A DNA stretch of 64,000 bases from Dehalococcoidia bacterium (GCA_965262485.1 OZ253540.1:3606080-3670079); one strand, 5' to 3'. Numbered from the stretch's first letter, positions 1 to 23,511 are shown. Program-made: numbers and translations. The notes: a model not told the origin generated them from the sequence alone.

Positions 1-319
1 ACATTATCAAAGCCTGTTTTTCTACATTGGTTACATCGCTATACCGACGTGTATTATGCTTTTCCAAAGGCTTTATATGAGCCGTCTGTCACCTATCGCG
101 TGAGCTGTCAATTACGACCCGGACTGCGCTGCATTGGTTGGTGCCATTCATTCCACGCTGCCGGCAATCGCATGCGATCCGGGATAGTTTGGCTATAACG
201 CACCTGACCATCTGCTGGCTCGGCCAGCGAGAACGCTGAAGAAACTCAGGGTTGTAGTTGAGGGCAGCATGGACGAAACCGACAAGGCGGATCAAGTCAC
301 ACCTTTAAGAGATACTGAC

Positions 320-1476
320 ATGAAAGACATAACATTTTTTCCGGTTGGCAATGCCGACACGTGCTTGCTGGCCACGGATGATGGAAGCCAGTTGCTGTTC
401 GACTTCGCCGCGCCCAAAAATCAAGGCGATGAGGACAAACGCATAGACCTGATTGAAGAATTTCGGAACAGGCTAGCCGAATCTGAACGGGACCACTTCG
501 ACATGGTTTCCTTCAGCCACCTGGACACGGATCATTTCGCCGGAGCATCCGAGTTCTTCTATTTGGAGCACGCAAAAAATACCAGGGTGAGGGAAGGGTT
601 CACATAAAGGAAATGTGGGTTCCTGCGGCGGCAATACTGGAAAGCCGTTGGGAGCAATCGGAGGAAGGTCGCATTGTTCAGGCTGAAGCCCGCCACCGCT
701 TGAAGGAAGGGAAGGGCATCCGCGTGATCTCCGAGCCCAAAGCCCTCGACAAGTGGCTGCCGGATGCAGGCGTAAAGCCGGACGAGCGGCGCCATCTGAT
801 TGTGAGTGCGGGGAACTGTATGCCGGGTTTCACCTTGGCAAGTGCCGGCGCTGAGATCTTTGTCCATTCACCGTTTTCGTACCAGCATGGCGGAAACACG
901 GAAGTCGACCGCAACGCTGAGTCGTCAGTTTTCCACCTGACGCTCCAGGACGGGGCAAAGCAAGTAAAGGTCTTCCTGACCGCCGATGCGCCCTATGAGG
1001 TACTGGAAGACATAGTCCGAGCTACCGAGAAAGCGGGTAACACCGACCGGTTGGAATGGGACCTGATGAAAGTCCCTCATCACTGCAGTTATAAGTCGCT
1101 GGGTCCTGACAAAGGTGCCGATGTGACTGAGCCTGCGGAGAAGGTGGCCCGCCTCTACGAACACTACGGCCGCGAGGGAGCCGTAGTGGTTTCGCCGAGC
1201 AACGTGATTCCAGAATCTGACGAAACGCAGCCACCTCATGTCCAGACTGCGGAGTATTACCGCAAGGTAGCTGAGGCGAAAAAAGGACAGTTCAAAGTCA
1301 CCATGGAACATCCGACCCAGGAGGATCCAAAACCCATGAAGGTCGAGGTGAGAGGACTGGGACTTGGTGCCACTGTGGTTGCAGGAAGTTCTACAAGCCC
1401 CAGCGGAAGTCGCCGTATGACCCATACCAGGACCTCCGAGAGCAGGAAGGGCGGGATGAGGCGAGGGGCAGACTGA
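320..1476 (+). pseudogene. MBL-fold metallo-hydrolase (ComEC/Rec2-type lactamase domain), split by a frameshift in an A6 run
   Basis: ORFs 269..607 and 613..1476 are consecutive pieces of one protein. The N-part has 'ITFFPVGNADTCLL' and metal motif 'SHLDTDH'; the C-part has 'KVPHHCSYKS'. One extra A in aaaaaa (574-579) would join them (...LEHAKKYQGEGRVHIKEMWVP...). Stop TGA 1474-1476 overlaps ATG 1476 of the next ORF (TGATG). Confidence 0.7.
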
Positions 1477-1895
1477 TGGCGCCAAAAGCCTCCGGTAGAG
1501 CGTTGGCAGACGTTGATGCCGACGCTCTTTCCATTCCCAAGGCCAAAGAATTGGCCATTTTTCTGCGTGCCGGCCACGGCGACGGGGCGCGGTTGGTCAG
1601 CTGCTGCCAATCGGTGGACCGAAGTGTTGAAGGTTTGACGATCGAGGTGTCAGTTTCGCTGCCACAGCGTCCGGCTAACGATATCAAGCCTAGCGAAACC
1701 ATCGTGGTCGGTTTTACCTCGGATGAGAGACTTCCACCCGGCGTTTTCTCGCCAAGACCAGATTTTCCATACGCTCCACATACGAATCTGCAAACCGCGG
1801 GGGAGTGGCGGAGTCTATGCCTTTACGACCAACCCTGGTACGAGGTCAAATTCGATTGGAATCCGGTACGCTTCCTGGAGCGCATCGTTTGGTGA
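1476..1895 (+). pseudogene. E2/UBC-like domain segment of an E2-E1-JAB fusion
   Basis: The C-terminal half 'PDFPYAPHTNLQTAGEWRSLCLYDQPWYEVKFDWNPVRFLERIVW' fits the UBC core pattern H-[PT]-N ... C-L ... W-x-P. It is in the same frame as ORF 1920..2738, separated only by TGA 1893-1895 (IVW*LEETAHGSL). The downstream ORF has no ATG (track start is TTG). Confidence 0.6.
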
Positions 1896-3482
1896 CTTGA
1901 AGAGACGGCGCACGGTTCGTTGCACCAACCGGACCAGCCTCTGGAGCCTCTGTTATTCGGTTCGTATTCAGACCTGATTATCCCAAGTGAACTTCTCACC
2001 ATGCCTCGGGGCTCGCACCGTTGGGCTCGGGTCAGGCGTATCAACCGGACGGCTGGCAACTACACCCTGGCGCTCGGTGGACTGACAGGCGTACCGAAAG
2101 CTGATGCGGAAGATCAATGTGCCGTAGTGGTCATGGCTACTCGGCCGATGACGCATGGTCTTATTCGGTCTACGCCCCGCACGCTGGGAGAATTGCATAA
2201 CCTTCTACTTGAAGGCGGCGTCAACGTTAACCGCGAGTTGAAGGGCATTTTCGACGGCTGGAATAGACGTTCCAATGCAGACGAGTTGAAAGATGTCCTC
2301 GCTGCCCAGTTGGTTATTGTGGTCCGACTCCCAAAAAGACGGCGGGATGGAGGTGCGGTTGAAACCGTCGAGTTTAGGGCGTTTAAGGTGCAGGACGCTG
2401 TTGGGATAGTAGGCGCTCGCCTTGGAATGGAGTGGCACTGTAGCGAGATCGAAGACCCCAACCCATCCGCGGCGCGACAGCAGAACGGACCTGAAACGGG
2501 ACTGACCTTACTGAATGTTCGAGAAGTTTTCACAAAGGAACTGGCGCGCCGGTCCAACGGGCTGAGCCATACAAGTTCCGACCCGCGGGTGACGGCAATC
2601 GGGGCTGGGGCGCTTGGGTCACCGGTCCTAACGAATTTGACGCGGTCGGGATATGGGCGGCTGACAGTCGTCGATGGGGATGTATTGCATCCCCATAATC
2701 TGGCGCGCCATGCTCTCGGTGCATCATACGTTGGGTAGTATAAGGCAGAGGCGCTTGCTTCCGACCTTTCCAAAATAATGGCTGAGGAGCCTCCGGTCAG
2801 ATCAATCGTCGCGAACGTGCTGTATCCCGGAAACAAGACAGGCGCACTGGAAGCGGCGTACCAGGACGCTGACCTGATTCTGGATATGGCCGCCTCGATA
2901 CCGGTGTCCAGGCATCTGGTGTATGACGTGAGCAGCGGGGCTCGCCGGGCGTCGTTGTTGCTGAACCCTTCGGGCAAAGCTTTGACCTTGCTCGCCGAGG
3001 ATGCCGTTCGCGAAATACCGCTGGATTCGCTGGAGATGCAATTTTACCGAGCCATCGCGAGAGACCCGGGACTGTCGTCGTTGCTGGACCATCCCGATCG
3101 GAACAGGATAGGACAGACCTGCCGGGATATTTCGGCGGAAATTGCCCAAGACGACGTCGCGATGCATGGCGGGATGGGAAGTCGGTCGGTGCGGCAGCTA
3201 TCCGAGTGTGGCAGAGCCCGAATCCGAACGTGGCTCTCGGATGAACACGACAATTATCGGCTGGTGATGGATATCGAGCCGGCAGTGCCGATCCGATACA
3301 CCAAAGGGGACTGGACGGTAGTTTTGGATACTGAGCTATTGGATACATTGGCTCGGATGCGGGAGTGCCGTTTACCCAATGAGACCGGTGGGGTCCTCCT
3401 CGGATCTTGCGATCGTTCCCGTAAGATTCTCTACGTAGTTGATGCCTTGCCGTCGCCATGGACAGCGAAGAACGCAGGATAA
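1896..3482 (+). pseudogene. ThiF/E1-like adenylyltransferase segment with an in-frame TAG
   Basis: Rossmann motif 'VTAIGAGALGSPVLTNLTRSGYGRLTVVDGDVLHPHNLARHAL'. TAG at 2736-2738 interrupts 'GASYVG*YKAEALASDLSKIMAEEP' with the frame conserved into ORF 2778..3482 ('DADLILDMAAS'). The 3' end already encodes the first JAB motif ('NETGGVLLG'). Confidence 0.75.
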
Positions 3483-3718
3483 GTTACATCCGCGGAACCA
3501 AAGGGTTGTCGAAAGAAGTTGAGCGGATTGTGCATGTTACCGGCTCGAATCTGGCCTACGTAGGCGAATGGCATTCACATCCTGATGGGCACGGCGTGGA
3601 ACCCAGCGCTGATGATAAGCGGTTACTGAATTGGATATGGGCTGGCATGCAGGAGGAAGGGGAGACCGGGGTGATGTGCATCATAGGGGAAGGGAAACAA
3701 CTGGGTGTTTACCTGTAA
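3458..3718 (+). pseudogene. JAB/MPN (JAMM) metalloprotease segment
   Basis: 'VGEWHSHPDGHGVEPSADD' is the H-x-H...S-x-x-D JAMM motif. The matching Glu motif lies upstream in another frame (ORF 2778..3482), so a +/-1 shift near 3455-3482 splits one JAB domain. Confidence 0.8.
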
Positions 3719-3852
3719 CGCGGATAGCGGACGTCATCGATATTCATTGCGACCGGTTGGGGGATGGAGTGTTTTTCCAGGCCCAAAGGCTACGTATGGC
3801 GTACGGCAGGCCGCCAGCAGCGGTTTAGGCCATAGGCTTGAAACGGTCCCGT

Positions 3853-4005
3853 ATGGCTCAGAAGAATGATGTTGGTTTGGTTTTGTCCGGCGGTGGCTTC
3901 CGCGCGACGCTCTTTCACTTGGGGGCGGTATGGAGGCTGAACGAGCTGGCTTTGCTTCAATCCGTTGCGATCGCCAATACGCAGCCCCTCTGCCCTCAAT
4001 GCTAG
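3853..4005 (+). pseudogene. patatin-like phospholipase, N-terminal fragment (50 codons)
   Basis: ATG 3853 gives 'MAQKNDVGLVLSGGGFRATLFHLGAVWRLNELALLQSV...' with the patatin oxyanion motif GGGxR[AG]. Similarity ends about codon 38 and TAG is at 4003-4005. It is below the ORF-track length cutoff. Confidence 0.55.
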
Positions 4006-4095
4006 TCCCGCACAGTCTAATAATGTCAAGATCGGTCAGCTCGACGCCGCGTCCTATTCTGCTAAAAAATGCACAACACAATACAGGAGGGAATT

Positions 4096-4887
4096 GTGAG
4101 CACGACCGTTCATTTCATTGACGTGGGGCAAGGTAACATGGTGCTGGTCCAGTGCGCGAGCGGCACCAATTTCGTCGTAGATTGCAATATCACGGAGGAC
4201 AACAAAGATCGCGTCCTCGGATACGTTGCCGGGCAGATAGGCTCGGGCAGTCGGTTGCACGCCTTTATTTGCACGCACCGGGATGCGGACCATATGAAGG
4301 GCGTCCGAACCCTTCATAACCAATTCCCAATCCGGGAAGTCTATGATAGCGGTTATCCCGGCACGTCAACGGACACAGACGAATACAAAGCCTACATGCA
4401 ACTCCGGAGGGACGTGGGGCACCGGATTATTGAGAAGCAGAAATACAATGACTATGGGCGAACGCGGTTCCGATATCTGAGCGCGAAAGACGACAGACTG
4501 TCGGGCAACGCCAACGATCAGGGGATCGTTCTTAAAGTGGAGCAACGGAACCCCGATATGTCCCGGGTCTTGGGCAGCACGATCCTAACCGGCGACGGCA
4601 GTTGCGCCGTATGGAAAGACGGCATCATGAAAGATTATGCTCCCAGTCAATTGTCGTGCAACATCTTGATGGCTGCCCATCACGGCTCTCTCGACTTTTT
4701 TGATGACCCAAGCAACAACCGTTACATGAAACATATGGAAGCCATGAAACCCGCCATGACCATCGTTTCCGTGGGACCGAACAACTATGGCCATCCCGAT
4801 CCCACAGCACTAAGGTTGTACCGAGAGAATTCCAGCGGCTCAAACCAAGGCAACAAGTGTATAGGACCGACCAGCAACACACGATGA
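4096..4887 (+). CDS. MBL-fold metallo-hydrolase (ComEC C-terminal-like)
   Basis: 'VHFIDVGQGNMVLV', 'CTHRDADH', 'AAHHGS'. The likely start is GTG 4096, 5 nt after AGGAGG (4085-4090); the track start is 4069. It has the same unusual H-x-D-x-D-H variant as the first MBL gene. Confidence 0.75.
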   Translation: MSTTVHFIDVGQGNMVLVQCASGTNFVVDCNITEDNKDRVLGYVAGQIGSGSRLHAFICTHRDADHMKGVRTLHNQFPIREVYDSGYPGTSTDTDEYKAYMQLRRDVGHRIIEKQKYNDYGRTRFRYLSAKDDRLSGNANDQGIVLKVEQRNPDMSRVLGSTILTGDGSCAVWKDGIMKDYAPSQLSCNILMAAHHGSLDFFDDPSNNRYMKHMEAMKPAMTIVSVGPNNYGHPDPTALRLYRENSSGSNQGNKCIGPTSNTR

Positions 4888-4919
4888 AGCTGACCTTGAA
4901 ATCCAGGGTCTTTCAGTTT

Positions 4920-6033
4920 TCAAGGGTTAGCCAAGCCCAGGATGGCTAAGGCTTGGCCCGGCGCCCAGCCGATGCGCCGTATTGCCGCCGCGATGTTGGT
5001 CTCCCCACCGCTCCGCAACAGTCCCAAGACCACGTTGCGCAATGCCGCCATCACCTGGGGCGCTGCCCCGGTTCTCACCTGGGATGCGTCCTCCCCCAGG
5101 GTCACATCCCGAACGTAGTGCAGCCGGTTCTCAATTCCCCAGTGGCCCCGTACATACCCCAGCAGTTTCCCCGGCCCGGTCTCCCTCCCCAGGCTGGTGA
5201 TAGCGTAGCGCGTCTCCATAGACACGCTCCCCTGCTGTTTCACCCGCCGCCGCACCTCGCAGACCTGCCGCACCCCGGGCCAGTCCAGGTATTCATTCAG
5301 CGCCTCCGTAGCCCGCAACTGCCGCGTCTCCCAGCGATCCCCGTGACGGCCCCGCCGCCGGGCCTGTCGGTACTGGGCCCCCCAGATCGGCTCGGCAAAG
5401 GCCAGGGCAATGGCATCGTACAGTTCCCGCTGGTTCTTTTTCACGATGACCAGATAGTCGCCCCCAGCGTCCAGCAACTGTTGGCAATAGTCCCGCTGAC
5501 AATACAAGGCATCCCCGGTAATCACGTTACCCGCCACCGGCAGCAGTTCCGCCGTCAGTTGCCGGGCCGTTGTCAGTTCCCCCGGTACCGGCCCCACCCC
5601 CCTTTTGCCCTACCACCAGGCTGGATTCGTGAGCATATCCGGCCACCAGGCGCACCCCGGGCAACTCTGGGCCGTGGATCCCCCGCAGGGCTTTGCCGTC
5701 CACCGCAATAGCGCTCCCTGCCGGCAGTCCCGCCCGGCTCCACTCGGCCAGGGCGGACTTGAAGGCGGCCGCGTCCAGCCGACGGAATACGGTATGAAGG
5801 CTGCCCACCGCTGGCGTCCTGGGCCGGGTGAAACCCATGGCCTGCACCGTGGCGGCATCTTGCTGGCGACCCCATTGATGAATCGCGTAGAGGCTGCGGG
5901 CCCCGGAGAGCATGGCGCAGACGGCCAGCGTCAGGATGGCCGGCAGAGGATGACGCCGTCCCCGCAATCCCCGGGGGTCCGGTACCGAAGCCAGGACGGC
6001 GGGCAGGCTTTGCGCTAGTTCCGTCGTGTTCAT
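4920..6033 (-). pseudogene. ISAs1-family transposase, frameshifted
   Basis: 'MNTTELAQSLPAVLASVPDPRGLRGRRHPLPAILTLAVCAMLSGARSLYAIHQWG...IAVDGKALRG' (ORF 5527..6147) continues as '...[17 protein letters not shown]...[20 protein letters not shown]' (ORF 4920..5597). The frame break is in the C6 run at 5597-5602. The likely Met is at 6033. Confidence 0.8.
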
Positions 6034-6047
6034 ATCCCCCAGTCTAA

Positions 6048-6909
6048 GAGCCTGTCTACGATCTCTGAAATAGGTTAAGTTGAGGCTATTATTCAGGGGA
6101 GGGTAATCATGTCTCATTCCTATCCCAGCGACATCAGCCGGGAGCAATTCGCCCGTATTCTGCCGACGCTGGAGTCGGCCCGCCGCCGGACCAAGCCCCG
6201 CACCGTGGACTTGTATGACGTTTTCTGCGGTGTGCTATATCTCCTGAAAAGCGGGTGCCAGTGGCGAATGATACCCGCGGACTTCCCCGATTGGCGCACC
6301 TGCTACCAGTATTTCCGGCAATGGAGTGAGCGGCCCGACCCGGAGCAGGATTCCATTCTGGAACAAGTCCTAAAAAAAATCGGTTGGCGCGGCCCGACGC
6401 AGCAATGGGCGGAAAGAGCGGACCAGCTTCTGTATCGTGGACTCCCAGAGTGTCAAGAACACGGACAGCGCCGAGCACAAGGGCTATGACGCGGGCAAGA
6501 AGGTATCCGGAATCAAGCGACACATCGCGGTGGATACGCAAGGATTGCCCCATGCGATCCACATAACCACGGCCAACGTCACCGACCGGGCTGGGGCTTT
6601 GGCGATGTTTGACCGGCGCCGAGACGGCCTCAGTCAAGTGCAGAACGTGCTGGTGGACGGGGGTTACACCGGAAAGCCCTTTGCTGCTGCGGTGCAAAGC
6701 TTGTTGGGAGCCGCGGTGGAAGTGGTGAAACGCAGCGAACTGCACACCTTCGTGGTGCTGCCGAAGCGATGGGTGGTGGAGCGGTCTTTCGCCTGGCTGG
6801 AGAAGTGCCGCCGCCTCTGGAAGAACTGCGAAAGAAAGCTCAATACCAGCCTGCAAATGGTGGTGCTTGCCTTCATGGTGCTAATCCTCAAAAGATTGTA
6901 AACAGGCTC
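6048..6909 (+). mobile_element. IS5-family (IS427-like) element, copy 1, nested in the ISAs1 element
   Basis: IRs are GAGCCTGTCTACGATCT (6048-6064) and GAGCCTGTTTACAATCT (reverse complement of 6893-6909). TAA lies on both flanks (6045-6047, 6910-6912). It is inserted 14 bp upstream of the ISAs1 transposase start. Confidence 0.85.
6109..6901 (+). CDS. IS5-family transposase, two-frame OrfA/OrfB
   Basis: OrfA is 6109..6489 ('YLLKSGCQWRMIPADFPDWRTCYQYFRQW'). OrfB frame is 6437..6901 ('DSQSVKNTD...GYDAGKKVSGIKRHIAVDTQGLP...VERSFAWLEKCRRL'). An A8 run at 6372-6379 lies upstream of the overlap; one A fewer fuses the frames, as seen in copy 2. Confidence 0.85.
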
Positions 6910-7024
6910 TAAGGCTTCTTCTGAAAACTGAAAGACCCTGCCTTGAAATCCGGTGGTGGTTGCGATATAGCAACTAACCAGTGATCAGTCATATCGACAA
7001 CGACGAATTATCTCGCCCGCCACC

Positions 7025-7782
7025 ATGCCATTTGTTGACCCCTACACCTTCCGAGCGCGAATTCAGCCCGCGCTCGTTGTTGTCTTGCCGTTGGGCTTCC
7101 TGATGTTTGCGCTGCTCCCGGAGCATCCGTTTTTCGTAACTGCGTTCTTTGCGCTTTTGGGTGCTGCGGGCGGCACCGCTGTTGTGGCGCAATTAGGACG
7201 GGAACGAGGCCGCAAGAAGGAGCCAAATCTGTGGAAAAGTTGGGGTGCCCACCCACAACCCGCCTGCTCCGGCATCGCCGCCAGGAAGGCGACGATGCGT
7301 TAGCACCTGGGTTGCGCCGGCAAGTCGAGGAGTGGATCGGTTATCCGCTTCCTACCGAGCAGGAGGAGGAAGCCAATCCCTCGTGGGCAGACACGAAATA
7401 CGAGGAGGCCGTAACGTCTCTGCGCGAGGCTACTCGGGATACCTCTAGGTTTCCACTGGTCTTTGCCGAGAACGCTAACTACGGTTTCAGGCGCAACTTG
7501 TGGGGCTTGAAGCCAATTGGGGCACTCATCGCCGCCGTGCTCGTTATGGTCTCTTGGACGCTGCTGCTGCTAACCATATGGGGGCGACCTTGGCCAGATC
7601 CGTGGTGGGACGTATTCGCAAACCCGGATAGCGTCGCAGTGATCCGGCTTGCGGTCGCGGTTGCGGACACGGCCCTCGCTGCTTTTTGGATATTTTGGGT
7701 CAAGCCGTCATGGGTCAAGGCTGTAGCCGACGCTTATGCGATACGGCTCATGGAATCCGTGCAGACGCTGAGGAGCGGCTGA
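7025..7782 (+). pseudogene. 4-TM membrane protein of unknown function, frameshifted
   Basis: ORF 7025..7303 (two TM helices, '...KKEPNLWKSWG') continues in ORF 7231..7782 ('PPTTRLLRHRR...' plus two more TM helices). The frames overlap and the shift lies near the G/C runs at 7242-7252. Confidence 0.55.
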
Positions 7783-8091
7783 TCCGGTGTCTCTTCGCGC
7801 GAAGATGAACATGGGCGCAGCGGTACGTCTGGGGTGTCTTGGGCGGTGTGTCTAGCGGGCTGGATAGGCCCCCGTTTGATCTCGTGGGTGCGCACGCCGT
7901 TCTGGGCCATGCTGTTCCGCGTCAACTAGATTTGCGGCATCCTGTTGCCTCACTCAGAATTGTTACCGACCGCTGGGGACGCAATCATGTGGGTGGGGCG
8001 TCAGGAGAATGGCAAAACAGAGAATTCCCTGTGGCGAACTCACATCTATCTTCGGATAGCCAACGAATATGTTGTGTGATACGATCTATCA

Positions 8092-8640
8092 ATGGCAAGC
8101 AATTTTGCCCAGTCGGATGGCGAACTGGCACTCGTTCCAGGCGGCAGTAACTGGGTCTACGGCGATCGTTTCTTCGATCGAGCGACCGAGATCGAAGCGC
8201 TGCGGGAGCGTGTGGAAAACGGCACGCACACGCTCCTGACCGCACAGCGCCGCATGGGCAAGACGAGCCTGGTGCGGGAACTGCTGCGTCGATTGGATGA
8301 CGAAGGGCAGTTTGCCACCGTGTTCGTGATCTGGAAGCCGCCATGGACGGGGCTGACGCCGTCACTGAGATGGCGATCCAGGCTCAATCGGTCCAGAGCA
8401 TCTGGAGGCGGATCCAGACGTGGTCCGCCAACCGCCTGGGGGACATCCGCGACAATGCGGAGGAGGTGGGAGTATCCGAGCTGAAGGTGCGGTTACGCGC
8501 CGGGATGGACGCCGGAAACTGGCAGCGCGATGGCGACCGGTTCTTTGAAGCTCTGGCAGCCAACGAACGGCCGGTGGTGCTGTCCATCGACGAGCTTTCC
8601 ATCCTCGTAAACCGTCTGCTGAAGGGGTTCCGTTTGGTTT
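8092..8640 (+). pseudogene. AAA/Arch_ATPase-like ATPase, frameshifted and 3'-truncated
   Basis: Walker A 'TAQRRMGKTSLVRELL' is in ORF 8092..8484. Walker B 'PVVLSIDELSIL' is in ORF 8343..9038. The frame break is near 8326-8345. Protein-like sequence stops about 8635, where the ORF runs antisense into the next gene. Confidence 0.6.
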
Positions 8641-9242
8641 CAAGTGATAGCAACAGGGGCATCAAGTACCGTACCACCCAAAAGCAAACGGAATCCGCCG
8701 TCGGCCAGCTCGCCGGCCAACCGCAGCATCTCGGGGCCCAGGGTTCCGAGATACACCGGCGTGTTTGGCGGTGGATTGATGGCGATTCCGATGTCGCGAT
8801 AGTTGATGTGCACACCCTGATAATTCACCGATTCGCCGCGCACCAGGCCGCGAACAGTGGTCAGGTAGTCGCGCATCAGTCCGAGGGCCGACGTGCGGGG
8901 GAATCCCAGGGCGCGCCGGTTGGCGGGACGATAGGCGCTGCCGGAGCCGATGCCCATGATGAACTTGCCGCCGGTTTGCTGGCTCATGGTGCCGCCCGAC
9001 ATGGCAAACCCGATGGGAGTTCGGTACATGACCGGTGAGACGCCGATGCCGGTGATAAGACCGCCGGGAACCACTTCGGCGCTGGTCTGCCAGCGGCGGG
9101 CACAGACCTGGAAGGAATCGGTGCCGATGTTTTCGGGCGTCCAGATGCTTTCGTAACCGAGCTGGGCAGCCTCGCGGGCGAGATTGGCCTGGTCGTCCCA
9201 ATTCATGCCCAAAGTGTGGTCAAGTCCAACGCCAATTTCCAT
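8640..9242 (-). pseudogene. LLM-class (luciferase-like) flavin/F420 oxidoreductase, C-terminally truncated
   Basis: 'MEIGVGLDH...LAREAAQLGYESIWTPENIG...GKFIMGIGSG...LGTLGPEMLRLAGELADGG' is the typical N-terminal ~185 aa of a ~300-aa family. The tail 'FRLLLGGTVLDAPVAIT' is unrelated. Confidence 0.65.
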
Positions 9243-9398
9243 CTAAAAACCCCTCCGGCGATGCGTGTTTGCGCTTGAAAGTCAACGCTGGGATTGTATC
9301 ACGCAGGGTCATCGCAAGTGGTTATTGCGATGCTTCGTTGTAGGGGCAGGCAGCCGTGTGGGATACTGGATTACGGAGAGCTAAAAGGAGAACTAACG

Positions 9399-9599
9399 AT
9401 GAATACCGTAGCGGAAATTCAGCAAGCAATTTTAGAGCTTCCCGAATCGGACTACATCCAATTGAGCCGTTGGTTTCACCAACTCGATTGGAAACAGTGG
9501 GACTTGGAAACAGTGACAGATTCCCATGACGGAAGGCTGGACTTTCTGGTCGCGCAAGCCACAAAAGCCAAAGTAGACGGCACGCTGCAAGAACTCTGA
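9399..9599 (+). CDS. small hypothetical protein (antitoxin-like size and context)
   Basis: ATG 9399 is preceded by AAAGGAG (9384-9390). The 66-aa product is 'MNTVAEIQQAILELPESDYIQLSRWFHQLDW...'. Stop TGA overlaps the next ATG (TGATG). Confidence 0.5.
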   Translation: MNTVAEIQQAILELPESDYIQLSRWFHQLDWKQWDLETVTDSHDGRLDFLVAQATKAKVDGTLQEL

Positions 9600-9697
9600 T
9601 GCAATCGGTAGCCTTCGGCTACTGCAACCGGGTTAAGGGCAAATGCCCGCAAGGATACCTAATCGACCGCCTCCACGAGCTGGGCATAGTGGCGTAA
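9599..9697 (+). pseudogene. HNH-endonuclease 3' remnant (copy a)
   Basis: The 32-codon ORF 'MQSVAFGYCNRVKGKCPQGYLIDRLHELGIVA' matches the C-terminal C-N-x-x-K-G tail of HNH nucleases. It also matches remnant b at 10562..10720. Confidence 0.35.
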
Positions 9698-9707
9698 AGA
9701 AGGAAAT

Positions 9708-10547
9708 ATGTTAATCACACGAAACGAAACTGCAATCGCAACGCTTGTTGTCAGTTTGATGATCATCTGGGTTGGAATCGCCTGCGATACGGCTGCACCA
9801 TCGGAACCAACGTCAGCCTCCATAGATATGGATACGCCTGTGTCCACCTCGGTAGCGATGGCTACCCCGCATCCGACATTGGAAACGGCGCCGGAACCTA
9901 CGGCGACTCCACTGCCGACACCCACAGCCACGCTAGGACCTACGGCGACTCCACTGCCGACACCCACAGCCACGCTAGGACCTACGGCGACTCCACTCCC
10001 GACACCCACAGCCACGCCAGACATTAGTGGTATGGCCGCTGATTGCGAGCTTGCTCAGGCACGGCACCGTGGCATAAACCTTCTCCAATGGTTAGGGTCT
10101 GTATCAGACGACTCACAGACACCTGCCCCATTGGAGGATGAACCCGACGCCTGCCTCGAATTTCGCCGCCAATTCCCTGATGATTTCGTACGCCTGATTG
10201 GGAACACTATATCGGGCACTTTTGCCTTGTATGACGATGATTTGTTTGTCGTAACACGGGAAAGTCCACTGAAAGGTCATTGCTGGGGGCAGGGAGGTTA
10301 TGACGATATAAGAGGGGGGTTAGGTGTGGTCATCAAGAACGGCGAAGGGAAAATTATCGCGAATGATGAATTGTGGTCTGGCAAACTAACCGGGCTTAAC
10401 GAATGCACGTTCCCTTTCTACATCACCAGCGTGCCGGATACTGACTTTTACGAAATAGAGGTCGGCAGACGTGGCAGTCTGGTGTTTTCACGCTCCGATT
10501 TAGAGTTAGACGATTGGCAAGTTGGATTCCAGATAGGGGATAGGTAG
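9708..10547 (+). CDS. lipoprotein with Pro/Thr-rich tandem-repeat linker
   Basis: Signal/lipobox-like 'LVVSLMIIWVGIAC', a PT-rich repeat region, then a globular C-terminal ~170 aa. Confidence 0.7.
   Translation: MLITRNETAIATLVVSLMIIWVGIACDTAAPSEPTSASIDMDTPVSTSVAMATPHPTLETAPEPTATPLPTPTATLGPTATPLPTPTATLGPTATPLPTPTATPDISGMAADCELAQARHRGINLLQWLGSVSDDSQTPAPLEDEPDACLEFRRQFPDDFVRLIGNTISGTFALYDDDLFVVTRESPLKGHCWGQGGYDDIRGGLGVVIKNGEGKIIANDELWSGKLTGLNECTFPFYITSVPDTDFYEIEVGRRGSLVFSRSDLELDDWQVGFQIGDR
9897..10016. repeat. 42-bp tandem repeat x ~2.9 (encodes PTATPLPTPTATLG)
   Basis: Units 9897-9938 and 9939-9980 are identical (cctacggcgactccactgccgacacccacagccacgctagga). The third unit is partial and diverged. 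Confidence 0.9.
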
Positions 10548-10561
10548 ATGAAAAAATCCAT

Positions 10562-10720
10562 CAGCCGGCGCAGTCCCGACACTTGGGCAATCACCTCTCG
10601 AATTGGCTAGTGAGCCCAGGGCATCTGGCGCTACTGTGCGCCCACTGCAATCGAGTGAAGGGGGACCGGCCGCAGGAATACCTGGTGGCCCGGCTGCGGG
10701 AGATGGGCATGGCGGCGTGA
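10562..10720 (+). pseudogene. HNH-endonuclease 3' remnant (copy b)
   Basis: The frame ending at TGA 10718-10720 reads '...HLALLCAHCNRVKGDRPQEYLVARLREMGMAA'. There is no start codon or N-terminal half. Confidence 0.4.
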
Positions 10721-10744
10721 GGTAAGCCAGCCGGGAATGATAAA

Positions 10745-11326
10745 ATGACAGCATCCGAAGAAATAACGTTTGCAGCGCAAATCGCTTTCTATCTGTCGCC
10801 TCTGATTATCGCTCTGGTCACTTTCGTCTTGGCTTGGTGGCGTTTCAAGGTGTTCAGAATCAGAGAACCGGCCATCACAACTGACCTGCAGGTAACCAGC
10901 CGCCAGTGCAGTCCTTCCTACAATGCGCTGAGCGCAGTGGTTGTGCTGACCAATACGTCCAGGGTGGCTGTACGAATCACTGGATTGACGTGGTCGGTTC
11001 AGGTGCTGTCACCCTACAGCGACGAGGATGTGGAAAGTAAGATTATTGTATATGCGCCCTATATGGAGAGTGTTGGCTCACCCATTGAGTTCCCGTGGAA
11101 CGTCAACTACACCGTTTCACGGGCCGATTCGAGGATCTACATGGAACCCGGAGAGTCAAACACGATCAGCATGAGCTTGGCGATGCCAGATTGGATTGAG
11201 GCGGTTGACGTTCTCATTGAATTAGACAGCCCACATAGTTCGGAAGGCTCGTCGTTGTGTTGGGCTGCGCGACGACAGCACGACATCAAATCGGAGGTGC
11301 GAAATGTCGTTCAAACCCAAGCGTGA
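10745..11326 (+). CDS. N-terminally membrane-anchored hypothetical protein
   Basis: TM helix 'IAFYLSPLIIALVTFVLAWW' followed by a ~150-aa beta-rich region. GC is lower than the flanks. No family recognised. Confidence 0.55.
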   Translation: MTASEEITFAAQIAFYLSPLIIALVTFVLAWWRFKVFRIREPAITTDLQVTSRQCSPSYNALSAVVVLTNTSRVAVRITGLTWSVQVLSPYSDEDVESKIIVYAPYMESVGSPIEFPWNVNYTVSRADSRIYMEPGESNTISMSLAMPDWIEAVDVLIELDSPHSSEGSSLCWAARRQHDIKSEVRNVVQTQA

Positions 11327-11472
11327 TAAGCACTTGCCAAAGGGGCTTGTCCACGGGATTACTTCGATCATATTCGAAAGCGCATTAGAGCCGGCAAAAC
11401 CACCTAGCCCGCCAGCAGATCCGAGTGCCAATCCCACTCGCTCAACGTCACCGAACCATAAGGAGGAAAAAG

Positions 11473-11685
11473 ATGATCAACAAACCAACTGACCACCATG
11501 CTACACCAACCCAGCCACCGATCCCAATCCCTGACGAGCGCATTTCGACGGAGGGTTTTGTCTTTTACGAACAACTCTCCGTCGCCAAAACGGTCGTGCT
11601 TCCTTCCGCACAAATCCCAGCAGCGCCGCCACCGACCACACAAAAACCGGCAGAGCCGCCACAATCGAATCCCCAAGAAAAATAG
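11473..11685 (+). CDS. small Pro-rich hypothetical protein
   Basis: ATG 11473 lies 6 nt after AAGGAGG. The 70-aa product is 'MINKPTDHHATPTQPPIPIPDERISTEGFVFYEQLSV...'. Support is only the RBS and the open frame. Confidence 0.35.
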   Translation: MINKPTDHHATPTQPPIPIPDERISTEGFVFYEQLSVAKTVVLPSAQIPAAPPPTTQKPAEPPQSNPQEK

Positions 11686-11771
11686 TTCGGCTCAGAATCT
11701 GCTCTCACGCCTCCCGCAAGCGGTTGGGCAGCAGGCAGAGGAACACTGCGATACCCCCGCCGACACCTGGG

Positions 11772-11879
11772 GTGAGCGAATATCCGGAAACGCTCAGCGA
11801 GGATGATGTCCTCGACGGCGGCGACTTGCTGCCCGGTTTCACCTCTCCGGTCTGGCGGCTCTTCCGACGGCATCGCTAA
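11772..11879 (+). pseudogene. Uma2-family nuclease 3' remnant
   Basis: 'VSEYPETLSEDDVLDGGDLLPGFTSPVWRLFRRHR*' resembles the C-termini of the three intact Uma2 genes (…PETIDGEPVLPGFVFNVRSRIFD). The upstream part is not in frame. Confidence 0.4.
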
Positions 11880-11950
11880 CCCCGCCCGTCCTTTCCGGCC
11901 AAGCCGGCGGCCGGTGTTATAATCGGCGCCGGTTTCGCAGGAGAGGGTAT

Positions 11951-12090
11951 TTGGCCACATTGATCGGCTCCCGCGCGACGGAAACCTTCCAGTCCTTCCG
12001 CCGCCGCGATTTCACCCTGGTTTGGGTTTCCGCCAACATCGCGATGGTAGGGCGGCAGATGGAGGTCATCGCCGTTTCCTGGCTCCCTTG
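11951..12090 (+). pseudogene. MFS transporter 5' fragment
   Basis: 'MATLIGSRATETFQSFRRRDFTLVWVSANIAMVGRQMEVIAVSWL' is a typical MFS N-terminus and first TM. Similarity ends about 12088, where the methyltransferase frame takes over. Confidence 0.45.
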
Positions 12091-14823: not shown

Positions 14824-15196
14824 TGCTCAATCCGCGCCCTGAGCAGCTTCCATTTGGGGATAGTAGGGCCATGGCAATGGAGTGTTCCGCGTCAAGTATT
14901 CTTGCCGATTTGTCGCCGATTCCAAGCTCAGGCAACACGTTCCCAGATACTAAAATCCGGATTGTCTTTACGAGTGTAAACGGCAGCGGAGATGGAACGG
15001 ACGGTGGCGGAAAACGGGCCTAGCCAGCGTTGAAGGTGCGTATTCGCAATGTTTGCGCGGTTACAGACGGCTCGGGCGAGCGATCAGATTCGGTGGTGGG
15101 CAAGAGAAGACATCCGGGAGGCAGCAGCCGTGTCCAGTTAGGAGAGGATCTCGGAAACGTCAACTACAGCAGGTCACTAATCGGATAAAAGGGACG

Positions 15197-15811
15197 ATGT
15201 GGACCGCGATAGTGATTGCGGTGGTGTATGCAATGGCATTAGCCACGCCCACGGTCTGGGGGAGTCTGGCGCCTCAATGGCTGCAGGTCATGCTGGAGCA
15301 AAGGGATCGCTTCCTCACGCTGGGTGCAGCCATTTTTGGGATCTTATCGATAGTGGAACCGAGCCATGTCATGCCGAAAGCGTACTTGGCGACGGTAATT
15401 GCCGGCGGCCTCACTGCATATGCCGCAGTGCTCAACTCATTCAATCCAATCACCTTGGGAGTGGCAGGAGGAATCTTGCTGGCGACGTTCCCCGTGTTTT
15501 TGCTCTTAACAACTACTTGGCGAATGCCTAGGCGATGGGAGTGGGCAGGCTGGCCCGCCATAGCCTCAATTGTCACCCTGGTCGCGGTAGTAGCCACAAT
15601 CAATACACCATTAGCGGTGCTGATAGTCGCTATTCTCGGAGAGGAGATAGCGTTTGCGGCCTTGGCGTCGGCGGTGATAATCGCGGTGTTCGTACTTTTT
15701 GTTTCATGCAGTACGTTTGCGGTGAAAGGTGTGGGAAGAGCACAAAAAATATTTACGGAGCGATTTTTACACAATCAAGCTTCGGGTAGGAGACGGGGAA
15801 GACCCGCGTAA
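15197..15811 (+). CDS. multi-pass membrane protein, unknown function
   Basis: From ATG 15197, 'MWTAIVIAVVYAMALATP...' has 5-6 hydrophobic helices. The track ORF starts earlier, at 15053. Confidence 0.6.
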   Translation: MWTAIVIAVVYAMALATPTVWGSLAPQWLQVMLEQRDRFLTLGAAIFGILSIVEPSHVMPKAYLATVIAGGLTAYAAVLNSFNPITLGVAGGILLATFPVFLLLTTTWRMPRRWEWAGWPAIASIVTLVAVVATINTPLAVLIVAILGEEIAFAALASAVIIAVFVLFVSCSTFAVKGVGRAQKIFTERFLHNQASGRRRGRPA

Positions 15812-15928
15812 TAGCTTGGTCGATAGAGCGAAGTCCTTGGTGAACAATCGTGGGCGCCAGATCCGCCTACCATTCGATAGTGCAAATTTGCGCCGAGGCT
15901 ATATTCAGCCCAGAAACGGAATAATCGA

Positions 15929-16906
15929 TTGAAGATTGCAGGCGTTGACTTCCCGGAACCCCTGCTGAACGCCATGCGTGACGGCAGGCTGGTGATTTTC
16001 GCCGGCGCCGGTGTGTCCATGGGCCCGCCGGCCGGACTGCCCGGCTTCCGGCAGTTGGCCCAGCAAGTAGCCGAAGGAACTGGGCAGTCCATCGGCACAT
16101 CGGAAACCGAGGACCGCTTCCTGGGGCGGCTAGAAGACGGTGGCATTGATGTCCATCGCCGCGCTGCTCGATTTTTACAGCAGCACGATCCTGAACCCAC
16201 GGAACTGCACCGTAACTTGCTTCGGCTATACACGAAGACCGAAGATGTCCGAATCGTCACCACCAACTTTGACCCGCTGTTTGAGCAGGCCATCGGCAAC
16301 CTGTTCAATCCTGTACCGCGGGTATTTCAGGCTCCGGCGCTACCTTTGGGCAGTCGTTTTAATGGGATAGTGCACGTTCACGGACTGTTGCGCGAACCGG
16401 CAGAAATGGTGCTCACTCACCGAGATTTCGGCAAGGCTTACCTTACCGAGGCCGATGGCTGGGCGCGTCGTTTTCTGGTTGACCTCTTCGCTAACCAAAC
16501 GGTGCTGTTCGTAGGCTACAGCCACAGCGACATGATAATGACCTACCTTACCCCGTCGTTGCCGCCGGATGATGGACAACGGCGTTTCGCCCTGATCGGC
16601 GACCGGAGTGATGAACCGGAGAGATGGCTCGGACTGGGCATCCAACCCGTTATATTTCACCAAGTGGCCGATAATGACTTTAACGGTCTGGACGCGGCGG
16701 TAACCGGCTTGGCGAGCCACGTACGGATGGGCATTCTGGACTGGCAACGCGAAATCACCGAAATTGCCAACGGACCGCCGCCCATTGACGAGGAGGGTTC
16801 CAGCATCGTCGAACACGCTCTTTCCGATCCTGCGCTGACGCGTTTCTTACCAGGGCAGCCGATTCACCAGAATGGATTGATTGGCTTGACCGGAGCGACC
16901 AACTGA
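15929..16906 (+). CDS. SIR2_2-domain protein (defence-type NADase-like)
   Basis: 'RLVIFAGAGVSMGPPAGLPGFRQLA', 'VTTNFDPLFEQA', 'IVHVHG' and 'VLFVGYSHSDM' are the hallmarks of the SIR2-like defence family. It has a TTG start. The last ~20 codons look non-native (see finding). Confidence 0.8.
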   Translation: MKIAGVDFPEPLLNAMRDGRLVIFAGAGVSMGPPAGLPGFRQLAQQVAEGTGQSIGTSETEDRFLGRLEDGGIDVHRRAARFLQQHDPEPTELHRNLLRLYTKTEDVRIVTTNFDPLFEQAIGNLFNPVPRVFQAPALPLGSRFNGIVHVHGLLREPAEMVLTHRDFGKAYLTEADGWARRFLVDLFANQTVLFVGYSHSDMIMTYLTPSLPPDDGQRRFALIGDRSDEPERWLGLGIQPVIFHQVADNDFNGLDAAVTGLASHVRMGILDWQREITEIANGPPPIDEEGSSIVEHALSDPALTRFLPGQPIHQNGLIGLTGATN

Positions 16907-16911
16907 CCGCA

Positions 16912-22323: not shown

Positions 22324-22325
22324 TT

Positions 22326-22607: not shown

Positions 22608-22647
22608 CGCATTTATCCCGGTTGAGGTAACGCCTGAAGGATTACTA

Positions 22648-23501: not shown

Positions 23502-23511
23502 GGAGGCAATT

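What the first reader, a model, noticed from the sequence alone, without database searches (positions are those of the whole stretch)
269..4887. MBL-fold gene coupled to an E2-E1-JAB (Cap2/Cap3-like) fusion with no cyclase: candidate non-CBASS ubiquitin-like conjugation defence module
Seen: an MBL-fold gene (320..1476) ends in TGATG, overlapping the start of a 2.2-kb frame. That frame encodes, in order, a UBC-like core ('HTN...SLCLYDQPW...WNP'), a ThiF/E1 Rossmann domain and a JAMM/JAB protease (about 747 aa if repaired). This matches the combined size and order of CBASS Cap2 (E2-E1) plus Cap3 (JAB). Established: in type II CBASS, Cap2/Cap3 sit next to the CD-NTase and conjugate/deconjugate its C-terminus. 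Here the slot immediately upstream of the E2-E1 gene holds an MBL hydrolase with an unusual H-x-D-x-D-H metal motif and a disordered Gly/Ser/Arg tail. Downstream lie a patatin-effector fragment (3853..4005) and a second MBL gene with the same motif variant. Inference: the MBL protein may be the regulated or conjugated partner or the effector, giving a ubiquitin-like-controlled nuclease/hydrolase system distinct from CBASS, Bil or Bub. I vaguely recall comparative-genomics mentions of E1/E2/JAB neighbourhoods containing MBL proteins but cannot verify this, and I know of no functional description.
Basis: partly seen in the sequence, partly recalled or inferred. Interest (0 to 1): 0.78.

Follow-up and report, generated by a model that had tools for sequence, protein, structure and literature searches.

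The report
Dead copy of 6A-MBL defence operon
This stretch is a mutation-riddled, non-functional remnant of a bacterial anti-phage system that is already described and named (6A-MBL: a ComEC-like metallo-hydrolase plus a Cap2/Cap3-like E2-E1-JAB fusion), so it is neither a new defence module nor a working one.

Summary
The domain reading is correct. Window 320-1476 encodes an MBL-fold protein. Window 1476-3718 encodes an E2 - E1(ThiF) - JAB fusion of exactly 747 aa once repaired. No cyclase belongs to the operon.

It is not new. The repaired proteins pass NCBI's curated equivalog models for the "anti-phage 6A-MBL system": NF058524 at 367 bits (cut-off 220) and NF058523 at 600 bits (cut-off 320). 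The operon type was described by Iyer, Burroughs and Aravind in 2006 (Table 1, row 6a). Later papers cite van den Berg et al. 2024 for its anti-phage activity.

The copy here is dead. MBL1 has two frameshifts. The fusion has TGG>TGA, TGG>TAG and one frameshift. The patatin gene is deleted after codon 44. The second MBL gene has a frameshift and a nested IS insertion. A downstream 4-TM gene is frameshifted. The "TGATG overlap" and the "Gly/Ser/Arg tail" are artefacts of one of these frameshifts. That frameshift destroys the family's conserved C-terminal P-R-A-G tail.

In 80 genomes the MBL gene sits directly upstream of the fusion in 77. About three quarters of loci carry extra genes: patatin, a 4-TM protein or a second ComEC-like MBL.

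Verdict: already known, a pseudogene, low interest.

The parts
320..1476 (+). MBL1 pseudogene: the 6A-MBL system MBL-fold enzyme (ComEC-type, HLDTDH motif). It has a 1-bp deletion at about 573 and a 1-bp insertion at 1433. The ancestral stop is at 1457-1459.
   Evidence: Indels mapped against intact L001. Intact homologues are 376-379 aa and up to 90% identical.
1476..3718 (+). E2-E1-JAB ('cap2_3') fusion pseudogene, 747 aa if repaired. Lesions: TGG>TGA at 1893-1895, TGG>TAG at 2736-2738, and a 1-bp deletion at about 3457-3460.
   Evidence: NCBIfam NF058523 at 600 bits against a cut-off of 320. Pfam Prok-E2_A, ThiF and Prok-JAB. Lesions mapped against L001. Foldseek best match is Cap2 7to3, E 2.4e-23.
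1623..1892 (+). E2 (UBC-like) domain. It carries the family-invariant H-x-N motif and the catalytic-type Cys in SLCLYD (TGC at 1818-1820).
   Evidence: Pfam PF14457 E 1.5e-9. H102, N104 and C115 are invariant in 18 homologues.
2583..2933 (+). E1 adenylation (ThiF/Rossmann) core. It contains the GxGxxG motif and is interrupted by the TAG at 2736.
   Evidence: Pfam ThiF. TIGR02356 covers aa 370-486. PDB profile hit to Cap2 7to3, E 2.9e-16.
3309..3691 (+). JAB/JAMM peptidase domain (NETGG ... EWHSHP ... PSxxD), split by the frameshift at about 3457-3460.
   Evidence: Pfam Prok-JAB and PADLOC JAB models. NCBIfam Cap3 model matches aa 612-738. The motif residues are invariant.
3838..3968 (+). Patatin phospholipase stump. 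Only about 44 codons remain; the rest of a gene of about 373 codons is deleted.
   Evidence: 87.5% identical to the N-terminus of the intact L001 patatin. Homology to L001 ends at 3968. The same deletion junction is present in L084.
4096..4903 (+). MBL2 pseudogene: a second ComEC-type MBL (HRDADH motif). The likely start is GTG at 4096, preceded by AGGAGG. It has a 1-bp deletion at 4854, and the IS cuts off its 3' end, which lies at 6951-6983.
   Evidence: PADLOC PDC-M48B E 7.7e-16. NCBIfam ComEC_Rec2 and 6A-MBL_enzyme partial hits. 71% identical to the L040 homologue. Frame analysis and comparison with L084.
4904..6940 (.). Composite insertion. The outer IS has 19-nt perfect terminal inverted repeats and a DDE_Tnp_1 transposase on the minus strand. 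An IS5-like element is nested at 6041-6916. The target duplication is CCTTGAAATC.
   Evidence: Inverted repeats. Pfam DDE_Tnp_1, DDE_Tnp_1_assoc and DUF4096. The insertion is absent from sister locus L084, where the flanks join with a 10-11-nt overlap.
7025..7782 (+). 4-TM membrane protein pseudogene ('TM4'), with a 1-bp deletion at 7246.
   Evidence: 77-83% identical to the gene that follows the fusion in L004. Indel mapped. TM prediction and family alignment.

Best explanation
Window 320-3718 is a pseudogenised copy of the two-gene core of the known 6A-MBL anti-phage system. The core is a ComEC-type MBL-fold enzyme followed by a single polypeptide that combines Cap2-like E2 and E1 domains with a Cap3-like JAB peptidase. 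Downstream lie the stump of a patatin gene and a decayed MBL2 + 4-TM pair split by a nested IS. The whole region sits in a Dehalococcoidia-like defence island.

How intact relatives most likely work (inferred by analogy with type II CBASS, not shown here):
1. The E1 domain adenylates the C-terminal glycine of the MBL enzyme's disordered P-R-A-G tail.
2. The JAB domain first trims the 1-12 extra residues that follow the glycine in about 40% of homologues.
3. The tail passes through the invariant Cys of the mobile C-R-D loop and the E2 Cys (SLCLYD) to a lysine on a target.
4. This primes or relocates the ComEC-like nuclease or phosphodiesterase, and the JAB domain reverses the linkage.
5. Patatin, 4-TM or second-MBL genes, where present, add membrane or nuclease killing functions.

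In this window none of this can happen, because all five genes carry inactivating lesions.
For: Family identity:
- NCBIfam equivalogs are passed with wide margins.
- Pfam and PADLOC domains lie in the order E2-E1-JAB.
- Cap2 is the best full-length structural match and the best sequence match among solved structures.
- The MBL1 model (pLDDT 85.6) is closest to the ComEC MBL domain 9ic4, E 4.4e-13, and shares its metal motifs.

Prior description:
- PMC1779556, Table 1 row 6a.
- '6A-MBL' and 'MBL pathways related to type II CBASS'.

Decay:
- Two G>A nonsense changes of Trp codons, five 1-bp indels, a patatin deletion of about 1 kb and a 2-kb nested IS, all mapped against intact L001, L004 and L040.
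- Sister locus L084 comes from an independent assembly and is 98% identical. It shares the 573 deletion and the patatin deletion, carries its own private indels, and lacks the IS.
- The rest of the window holds many long ORFs of up to 1008 aa. Several of them have full-length Pfam matches.

Conjugation tail:
- P-R-A/V-G ends or nearly ends almost all of the 74 full-length homologues that were examined. 33 of them end in a motif the pattern search recognised with nothing after the Gly.
- The tail is disordered in the model.

Linkage:
- MBL1 lies directly upstream in 77 of 80 genomes.
Against: - No experiment here shows conjugation, nuclease activity or defence. The primary 6A-MBL paper (van den Berg 2024) could not be read, so what is experimentally established for the mechanism is known only second hand.
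- Some 1-bp indels could be long-read assembly errors. The assembly type is unknown, and one of the window's indels lies in a short homopolymer.
- The crude codon comparison with L001 over the fusion gave 71 synonymous against 57 non-synonymous differing codons. This suggests most of the divergence accrued under selection, so the inactivation is recent rather than ancient.
Confidence: 0.92

Rival explanations
1. The operon is intact in the organism, and the frameshifts and stops are sequencing or assembly errors.
For: Five of the lesions are single-base indels. One of the window's indels lies in a short homopolymer. The sister contig L084 has only 9x coverage and shows its own 1-bp indels.
Against: - Two lesions are G>A substitutions that turn Trp codons into stops.
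- The patatin gene lacks about 1 kb, and a 2-kb nested IS with a target duplication is inserted.
- The 573 deletion and the patatin deletion recur in an independent assembly.
- Elsewhere in the window, ORFs of 765-1008 aa are uninterrupted.
Confidence: 0.04
2. This is an ordinary type II CBASS whose CD-NTase lies just off the left edge of the window.
For: PADLOC CBASS E1-E2 and JAB models hit the fragments. A patatin gene, a typical CBASS effector type, follows. Only 268 nt lie upstream of the first ORF.
Against: - The orthologous intact locus L001 aligns from window position 1. Its upstream gene is divergent, 253 aa, with a weak HTH match, and no cyclase Pfam family occurs within 8 kb.
- The same holds for L002 and L003.
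- No cyclase family recurs among the 72 upstream neighbours.
- The slot that CBASS gives to the cyclase is taken by the MBL gene in 77 of 80 genomes.
- The proteins pass the 6A-MBL equivalogs, not the CBASS ones.
Confidence: 0.01
3. The locus was a single five-gene system (MBL1 - fusion - patatin - MBL2 - 4TM), and the MBL2-4TM pair is an integral part of it rather than a neighbour.
For: - The same gene order occurs in L002/L003 and L084.
- The 4-TM gene starts within or a few nt after the stop of the fusion in many genomes. 32 of 80 loci have TM4 and 26 of 80 have an MBL2-like gene near the core.
Against: - When loci are fetched from the TM4 side, most carry MBL2-TM4 or MBL2-TM4-MBL2 with no 6A-MBL core within 6 kb, for example L093, L120, L132, L137 and L152.
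- In L040 the pair lies 2.2 kb upstream on the opposite strand.
- MBL2 resembles the separate PADLOC candidate PDC-M48B.
Confidence: 0.3
4. This is a new ubiquitin-like defence module distinct from CBASS, Bil, Bub and anything else described.
For: PADLOC-DB v2.0.0 (2023) has no dedicated model for the MBL1 protein. Pfam gives no family for the MBL1 fragments.
Against: The operon was described in 2006. It is named and credited with anti-phage activity in papers from 2024-2026. It has curated NCBIfam equivalog models that the repaired proteins pass.
Confidence: 0.02

Closest known systems
6A-MBL anti-phage system (Iyer, Burroughs & Aravind 2006, operon type 6a; named in van den Berg et al. 2024; NCBIfam NF058524 + NF058523)
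   Same: - It has the same two core genes in the same order and orientation.
- The repaired proteins pass both curated equivalog cut-offs.
- The fusion has the E2-E1-JAB order in one polypeptide.
- The MBL gene lies immediately upstream.
   Different: - This copy is a pseudogene, with 2 lesions in the MBL gene and 3 in the fusion.
- The lineage (window, L001-L003, L084) also carries a patatin gene after the fusion, whereas the 2006 description calls the operon 'usually two genes'.
- Whether the accessory genes are already described could not be checked, because the primary paper is not held.
Type II CBASS Cap2 (E2-E1) and Cap3 (JAB) acting on the CD-NTase C-terminus
   Same: - Cap2 7to3 is the best structural match (E 2.4e-23 over 630 columns) and the best sequence match in the PDB.
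- The JAB domain matches the Cap3 model.
- The gene upstream of the E2-E1 gene ends in a flexible tail with a terminal Gly.
- The same types of upstream regulators recur (HTH + M78 peptidase, WYL).
   Different: - There is no CD-NTase.
- The partner is a ComEC-type MBL hydrolase.
- Cap2 and Cap3 are fused into one protein.
- No nucleotide-sensing domain was recognised in the accessory proteins that were scanned.
ComEC/Rec2 MBL nuclease domain and the defence-associated MBL nucleases (HamM and Avs1a-type partners of trypsin-like proteases)
   Same: - Both MBL1 and MBL2 carry the H-x-D-x-D-H and (V)PHH(G/C)S metal motifs.
- The best PDB fold match for MBL1 is ComEC 9ic4.
- MBL1 and MBL2 give weak PADLOC hits to the Avs1a, LmuA-associated and DRT-associated MBL models.
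   Different: - The partner here is a ubiquitin-like conjugation enzyme, not a trypsin-like protease.
- MBL1 has large helical insertions and a C-terminal conjugation-type tail.
- Nuclease activity is untested.
Bil and Bub bacterial ubiquitination-like operons
   Same: They use E1, E2 and JAB chemistry in a defence context.
   Different: - Bil and Bub encode a separate beta-grasp Ubl and separate E1 and E2 proteins.
- Bub lacks catalytic cysteines.
- Here there is no Ubl gene, the enzymes are fused, and both cysteines are invariant.

Membership tests
6A-MBL anti-phage system | An MBL-fold enzyme that reaches the curated cut-off of NCBIfam NF058524 (6A-MBL_enzyme) | tested here: met
   The repaired window protein scores 367.3 bits against a cut-off of 220. 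The fragment 613-1476 alone scores 251 bits. The intact relative P0121 scores 373 bits.
6A-MBL anti-phage system | A single polypeptide with E2, E1 and JAB domains in that order that reaches the cut-off of NF058523 (6A-MBL_cap2_3) | tested here: met
   The repaired 747-aa sequence scores 599.9 bits against a cut-off of 320. Pfam domains lie in order. Intact 747-aa homologues exist.
6A-MBL anti-phage system | The MBL gene lies immediately upstream of the fusion gene on the same strand | tested here: met
   In the window, the ancestral stop at 1457-1459 lies 16 nt before the ATG at 1476. The same arrangement holds in 77 of 80 genome loci.
6A-MBL anti-phage system | Intact, expressible genes (a functional member) | tested here: not met
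   MBL1 has two frameshifts. The fusion has two nonsense codons and one frameshift. The locus is a pseudogenised member, not a working one.
6A-MBL anti-phage system | Protection against phage | not testable with these tools
   Anti-phage activity is known only from citing papers. The primary paper is not held.
Type II CBASS | A CD-NTase (cGAS/DncV-like cyclase) gene in the operon | tested here: not met
   No cyclase family appears in L001-L003 within 8 kb. None recurs among the 72 upstream neighbours. The MBL gene occupies that slot.
Type II CBASS | A Cap2-like E2-E1 protein and a Cap3-like JAB peptidase | tested here: met
   Foldseek to Cap2 7to3, E 2.4e-23. PDB profile hit to Cap2, E about 1e-16. 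PADLOC E1-E2 and JAB models hit. The NCBIfam Cap3 model matches aa 612-738. Here the two are fused into one protein.
Bil / Bub ubiquitination-like operons | A separate beta-grasp ubiquitin-like protein gene and separate E1 and E2 genes | tested here: not met
   The intact orthologous operons contain only the MBL gene, the fusion and patatin, with 16-90-nt spacers and no additional small gene. E1 and E2 are fused.
ComEC-type MBL nucleases | MBL fold with H-x-D-x-D-H and PHH(G/C)S metal motifs | tested here: met
   HLDTDH and VPHHCS are invariant in 41 homologues. They align to HPDADH and VPHHGS of ComEC 9ic4. Fold match E 4.4e-13.
ComEC-type MBL nucleases | Metal-dependent nuclease activity | not testable with these tools
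   This is inferred from homology only. Activity has been shown for ComEC and for HamM-type defence MBLs in the literature (PMC12799240).
PADLOC candidate PDC-M48 (for the second MBL gene) | An M48B-type MBL protein together with an M48A partner | tested here: inconclusive
   MBL2 hits PDC-M48B at E 7.7e-16, but only over its N-terminal 104 residues. There is no M48A-like ORF in the window. M48A is present in L013, L030 and L079.

The most novel reading that the evidence does not exclude
At the family level, not for this dead copy, the 6A-MBL core may commonly be a three- or four-gene system. Its invariant, tail-conjugated ComEC-like MBL enzyme would work with interchangeable partners: patatin, a previously unannotated 4-TM protein, or a second ComEC-like MBL. 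The 4-TM protein also forms an autonomous MBL2-TM4 module. This suggests a general membrane-anchor plus ComEC-type-nuclease defence logic, for example attacking DNA at the membrane. It could alternatively point to effector activation without any nucleotide second messenger. Neither idea could be found in the papers that were readable here.
Probability: 0.25. Interest if true: 0.5.

Novelty: already known. Interest (0 to 1): 0.14.

Why it matters
This window matters little in itself. It is a decayed copy of a catalogued defence system, useful at most as an example of defence-island turnover. Two sister lineages share a founding lesion and then decay independently, and an IS nests inside another IS.

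The family-level by-products could help people working on the still poorly understood mechanism of 6A-MBL. These are the near-universal P-R-A-G tail with optional extensions, the frequent patatin, 4-TM and second-MBL accessories, and the CapH/CapP-like and WYL regulators. They need checking against the primary 6A-MBL paper before any claim of novelty.

Tried and rejected
- **Literature.** Several full-text searches were empty or swamped: Cap2 + metallo-beta-lactamase gave 0 papers, and 'MBL' alone returned muscleblind and mannose-binding-lectin papers. The primary 6A-MBL paper (PMID 39094584) and Ledvina 2023 (PMC10292035) are not held. What is experimentally known therefore comes from citing papers only.
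- **PADLOC.** PADLOC v2.0.0 has no 6A-MBL model. It gave only CBASS E1-E2 and JAB hits and weak MBL hits. On its own this would have suggested a CBASS-like novelty.
- **Recoding.** I considered programmed recoding or an alternative genetic code for the in-frame TGA and TAG. I rejected it because the intact relatives have TGG at both sites and the MBL gene itself ends in TGA.
- **Assembly error.** I considered assembly error as the explanation for all lesions and rejected it; see the rival explanations.
- **CapV-like patatin.** PADLOC gave no CBASS phospholipase hit for the L001 patatin and only a marginal one for L054. This is unresolved.
- **Search from the 4-TM side.** A first attempt failed because the alignment was too diverse. 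It was repeated with a narrower alignment.
- **Accessory-gene labelling.** The home-made 'MBL2' HMM became a general MBL model after two rounds (120 hits). 'MBL2-like' therefore means any non-MBL1 MBL ORF near the core, and the accessory counts are approximate.

Full report
**1. What is in the sequence**

Six-frame ORF listing shows that neither gene in 269-4887 is open.
- The MBL reading frame is split into 269..607 and 613..1476.
- The 2.2-kb frame is cut into 1476..1895, 1920..2738, 2778..3482 and 3458..3718.

Frame-by-frame translation across the junctions identifies the breaks.
- A frameshift lies near 573 in the MBL gene.
- An in-frame TGA lies at 1893-1895 and an in-frame TAG at 2736-2738.
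- A frameshift lies near 3457-3460.

- Pfam finds Prok-E2_A (E 1.5e-9) in 1476-1895.
- Pfam finds ThiF (E 3.6e-11) at the end of 1920-2738.
- Pfam finds Prok-JAB (E 7.7e-7) in 3458-3718.
- Pfam gives a weak Patatin match in 3838-4005 and Lactamase_B in 4069-4887.
- PADLOC's CBASS E1-E2 and JAB models hit the same pieces.

Joining the pieces gives a protein of 747 aa.

**2. Intact relatives and the lesions**

A search of the large protein collection finds intact 747-aa homologues up to 91% identical. All carry the three Pfam domains. The MBL protein has intact 376-379-aa homologues up to 90% identical.

The contig that carries the best hit (L001) aligns with window 1-3968 at 92% nucleotide identity. 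A base-by-base comparison with L001 maps the lesions.
- A 1-bp deletion at 573 lies in MBL1.
- A 1-bp insertion (C) at 1433 lies in the 3' end of MBL1.
- TGG>TGA at 1893.
- TGG>TAG at 2736.
- A 1-bp deletion at about 3457-3460 lies in the JAB domain.
- All homology is lost after 3968, which is 44 codons into a 373-codon patatin gene.

In L001 the MBL gene ends ...T-P-R-A-G-R-A-G-TGA, 16 nt before the ATG of the fusion. In the window the shifted frame runs on to a TGA that overlaps that ATG and produces the 'Gly/Ser/Arg tail'. Both features are artefacts of decay.

Downstream, the second MBL gene (likely start GTG at 4096, preceded by AGGAGG) is also broken.
- It has a 1-bp deletion at 4854.
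- It is cut at 4904 by a 2,037-bp element with perfect 19-nt terminal inverted repeats.
- That element carries a nested IS5-like element at 6041-6916.
- The target duplication is CCTTGAAATC.

Beyond the IS, a 4-TM protein gene (7025-7782) has a 1-bp deletion at 7246.

**3. Are the lesions real?**

A sister contig from another sample (L084) is 98% identical over window 309-4904.
- It shares the 573 deletion and the identical patatin deletion junction.
- It lacks the window's other lesions and the IS.
- It has private 1-bp deletions of its own.

This is the pattern of one founding inactivation followed by independent neutral decay.

Two of the window's lesions are G>A substitutions, which are not typical assembly errors. 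The rest of the window contains many uninterrupted ORFs of 580-1008 aa, several of which have full-length Pfam matches. I therefore treat the locus as a genuine pseudogene cluster. Some individual 1-bp indels could still be assembly errors.

**4. What it is**

NCBIfam holds curated equivalog models for exactly this pair of genes.
- NF058524 is 'anti-phage 6A-MBL system MBL-fold protein'.
- NF058523 is 'anti-phage 6A-MBL system cap2_3 protein'.

The repaired window proteins score 367 bits (cut-off 220) and 600 bits (cut-off 320). The intact relatives score 373 and 601 bits.

[quoted passage not shown] Later papers refer to it in these ways:
- '6A-MBL', credited to van den Berg et al. 2024 with anti-phage activity (PMC13276650);
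- one of the 'known jumbo phage defense systems' (bioRxiv 10.1101/2025.09.30.679545);
[quoted passage not shown] I could not read the primary paper.

**5. No cyclase**

The window starts only 268 nt upstream of the first ORF, so I used the orthologous loci.
- In L001 the next upstream gene is divergently transcribed, 253 aa, with a weak HTH match. No cyclase family occurs within 8 kb.
- The same holds for L002 and L003, where the upstream genes are an HTH_3 protein and an M78 peptidase.

Eighty species-representative genomes were fetched with the fusion protein as query. The closest are Dehalococcoidia MAGs.
- The MBL gene is immediately upstream, co-directional and within -43 to +18 nt, in 77 loci.
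- The three exceptions are two contig edges and one truncated copy.
- Seventy-two loci yielded an upstream neighbour. Among these the recurrent families are HTH_3 or HTH_31 (16), Peptidase_M78 (10) and WYL (3). These are the regulator types known from CBASS operons. No cyclase family recurs.

**6. Anatomy of the family (intact relatives)**

*The fusion.*
- Invariant residues include the E2 H-x-N motif and the Cys of S-L-C-L-Y-D.
- They also include the E1 G-x-G-x-x-G and P-H-N-L-x-R-H motifs and a Cys in a C-R-D motif.
- The JAB motifs N-E-T-G-G and E-W-H-S-H-P ... P-S-x-x-D are invariant too.
- An AlphaFold2 model (pLDDT 78.9) has low confidence exactly in the H-x-N loop and the C-R-D loop, as expected for mobile catalytic loops.
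- Its best PDB match is Cap2 of Enterobacter cloacae (7to3, E 2.4e-23, 630 aligned columns), followed by UBA5 and Atg7.
- By sequence profile, Cap2 is also the best solved relative.

*The MBL enzyme.*
- The model is confident (pLDDT 85.6, pTM 0.85) except for the last ~23 residues.
- It is closest to the MBL domain of ComEC (9ic4, E 4.4e-13) and then to the pneumococcal phosphorylcholine esterase Pce.
ComEC has HPDADH and VPHHGS; the MBL enzyme has HLDTDH and VPHHCS.
- Related defence MBLs of this ComEC-like type are DNases that are held inactive until processed (PMC12799240).

*The tail.*
- I examined 74 full-length MBL homologues from the genome loci. Nearly all carry a tail motif P-R-A/V-G.
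- 33 end with nothing after the Gly of a motif the pattern search recognised. Most of the 11 tails the pattern missed also end in a Gly.
- 30 carry 1-12 further residues after the Gly.
- A flexible tail ending in Gly, sometimes needing trimming, is what an E1 adenylation site uses. It parallels the CD-NTase tail bound in Cap2.
The conjugation itself is inferred, not shown.
- The window copy has lost this tail through the 1433 frameshift.

**7. Accessory genes**

Only 17 of the 80 loci lack a recognisable accessory gene, and several of those have other small membrane proteins downstream.
- 23 loci have a patatin gene.
- 32 loci have the 4-TM protein (TM4). It has no hit in Pfam, NCBIfam or PADLOC.
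- 26 loci have a second, non-MBL1 MBL gene, partly PADLOC PDC-M48B-like. Sometimes PDC-M48A accompanies it.
- Patatin and TM4 often start within or a few nt after the stop of the fusion.
- They were never found together, except in the lineage of this window (window, L002/L003, L084).

Eighty metagenome loci were then fetched from the TM4 side. Most show MBL2-TM4 or MBL2-TM4-MBL2 with no 6A-MBL core within 6 kb, and about a quarter sit next to a core.

I therefore read the window as a 6A-MBL + patatin operon followed by a separate, frequently co-located MBL2-TM4 module. The alternative, a single five-gene system, is not excluded.

**8. Context**

The left ~27 kb of the window is a defence island.
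- A Type ISP-like methylase/specificity protein lies at 12022-14823.
- A SIR2_2 gene and a DUF4020 gene lie together at 15929-19416.
- GmrSD lies at 19698-21464.
- An AIPR protein lies at 25671-26891.
- Ordinary metabolic and transport genes follow.

**9. Verdict**

The interpretation has the architecture right and is wrong on novelty. The system is catalogued and this copy is dead. Interest is low. The family-level by-products (tail motif, accessory modules, TM4-MBL pairing) are recorded as leads.

Noticed in passing
window 7025-7782; L004:9392-10150, L008:9234-9986, L016:9238-10011; metagenome loci L086-L165: A ~250-aa 4-TM protein family has two TM helices, a ~110-aa soluble middle with an ENxxYGFRRNLWG motif, then two more TM helices. 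It has no Pfam, NCBIfam or PADLOC match. It follows the E2-E1-JAB gene in 32 of 80 6A-MBL loci. Elsewhere it forms autonomous MBL2-TM4(-MBL2) modules with a ComEC-type MBL. It always pairs with a ComEC-like MBL.
   Followed up: partly
C-termini of the MBL1 homologues in L001-L083 (for example L001:6845-7984); destroyed in the window at 1433-1459: The tail motif P-R-A/V-G is near-universal on the 6A-MBL enzyme. The protein ends at the Gly in about half of the homologues. In about 40% it carries 1-12 extra residues, like a Ubl precursor that needs trimming.
   Followed up: partly
upstream neighbours of 72 6A-MBL loci (for example L003:5629-6664, L085:1344-2351): Recurrent divergent regulators lie upstream: HTH_3 or HTH_31 in 16 of 72, Peptidase_M78 in 10 of 72 (a CapH/CapP-like pair) and WYL in 3 of 72. 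These are the regulator types reported for CBASS operons.
   Followed up: partly
window 4904-6940: This is a nested insertion. The outer IS has perfect 19-nt inverted repeats, and its DDE_Tnp_1 transposase on the minus strand is itself split into two ORFs. An IS5-like element (DUF4096 + DDE, 24-nt imperfect inverted repeats) is inserted at 6041-6916. The 10-bp target duplication is CCTTGAAATC. The insertion is absent from sister contig L084.
   Followed up: yes
L084 (ena:ERZ25072670 ctg252768), 7836-14116: This sister lineage is 96-98% identical to the window. It shares the 573 deletion and the patatin deletion but has different additional 1-bp deletions (window-equivalent positions 947, 2816, 2952, 7515, 7610) and no IS. 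The same dead locus is decaying independently in two lineages.
   Followed up: yes
L005 (Dehalococcoidia chromosome OZ240229.1), 6908-9541: This is another decayed copy. The fusion lacks its first ~182 residues, no MBL gene lies upstream, and the patatin gene is split in two. Loss of this system seems recurrent in Dehalococcoidia.
   Followed up: no
window 8092-9242: Remnants of a gene lie at 8092-8484 and 8343-9038. Its L084 counterpart is a 410-aa protein with weak AAA_16 and ATPase_2 matches. Homology to L084 stops at 8627 and resumes at 12076. A luciferase-like monooxygenase fragment lies on the minus strand at 8640-9242. This points to a rearrangement or replacement of about 3.4 kb.
   Followed up: no
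window 12022-26891: Further defence genes lie here: a Type ISP-like N6-methylase + specificity protein of 933 aa in which Pfam found only methylase and specificity domains (12022-14823); SIR2_2 (15929-16906) next to a DUF4020 protein (16912-19416); GmrSD (19698-21464); and an AIPR protein (25671-26891).
   Followed up: no
L027, L058, L062, L082 (for example L082:1691-3534): Some 6A-MBL loci carry additional separate ORFs with E1-like or JAB-like matches about 0.9 kb upstream of an MBL2 - MBL1 - fusion - patatin array. The L082 ORF at 2566-3534 has a clear JAMM motif.
   Followed up: no
plasmid collection, for example NZ_CP141185.1 20832-24238: Relatives of the E2-E1-JAB fusion occur on 285 PLSDB plasmids, and 198 of them cover at least 80% of the query. 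Klebsiella dominates with 166 records. The fusion is usually annotated only as 'Mov34/MPN/PAD-1 family protein' or 'ThiF family adenylyltransferase', and in the one region inspected the MBL gene is annotated 'hypothetical protein'.
   Followed up: partly
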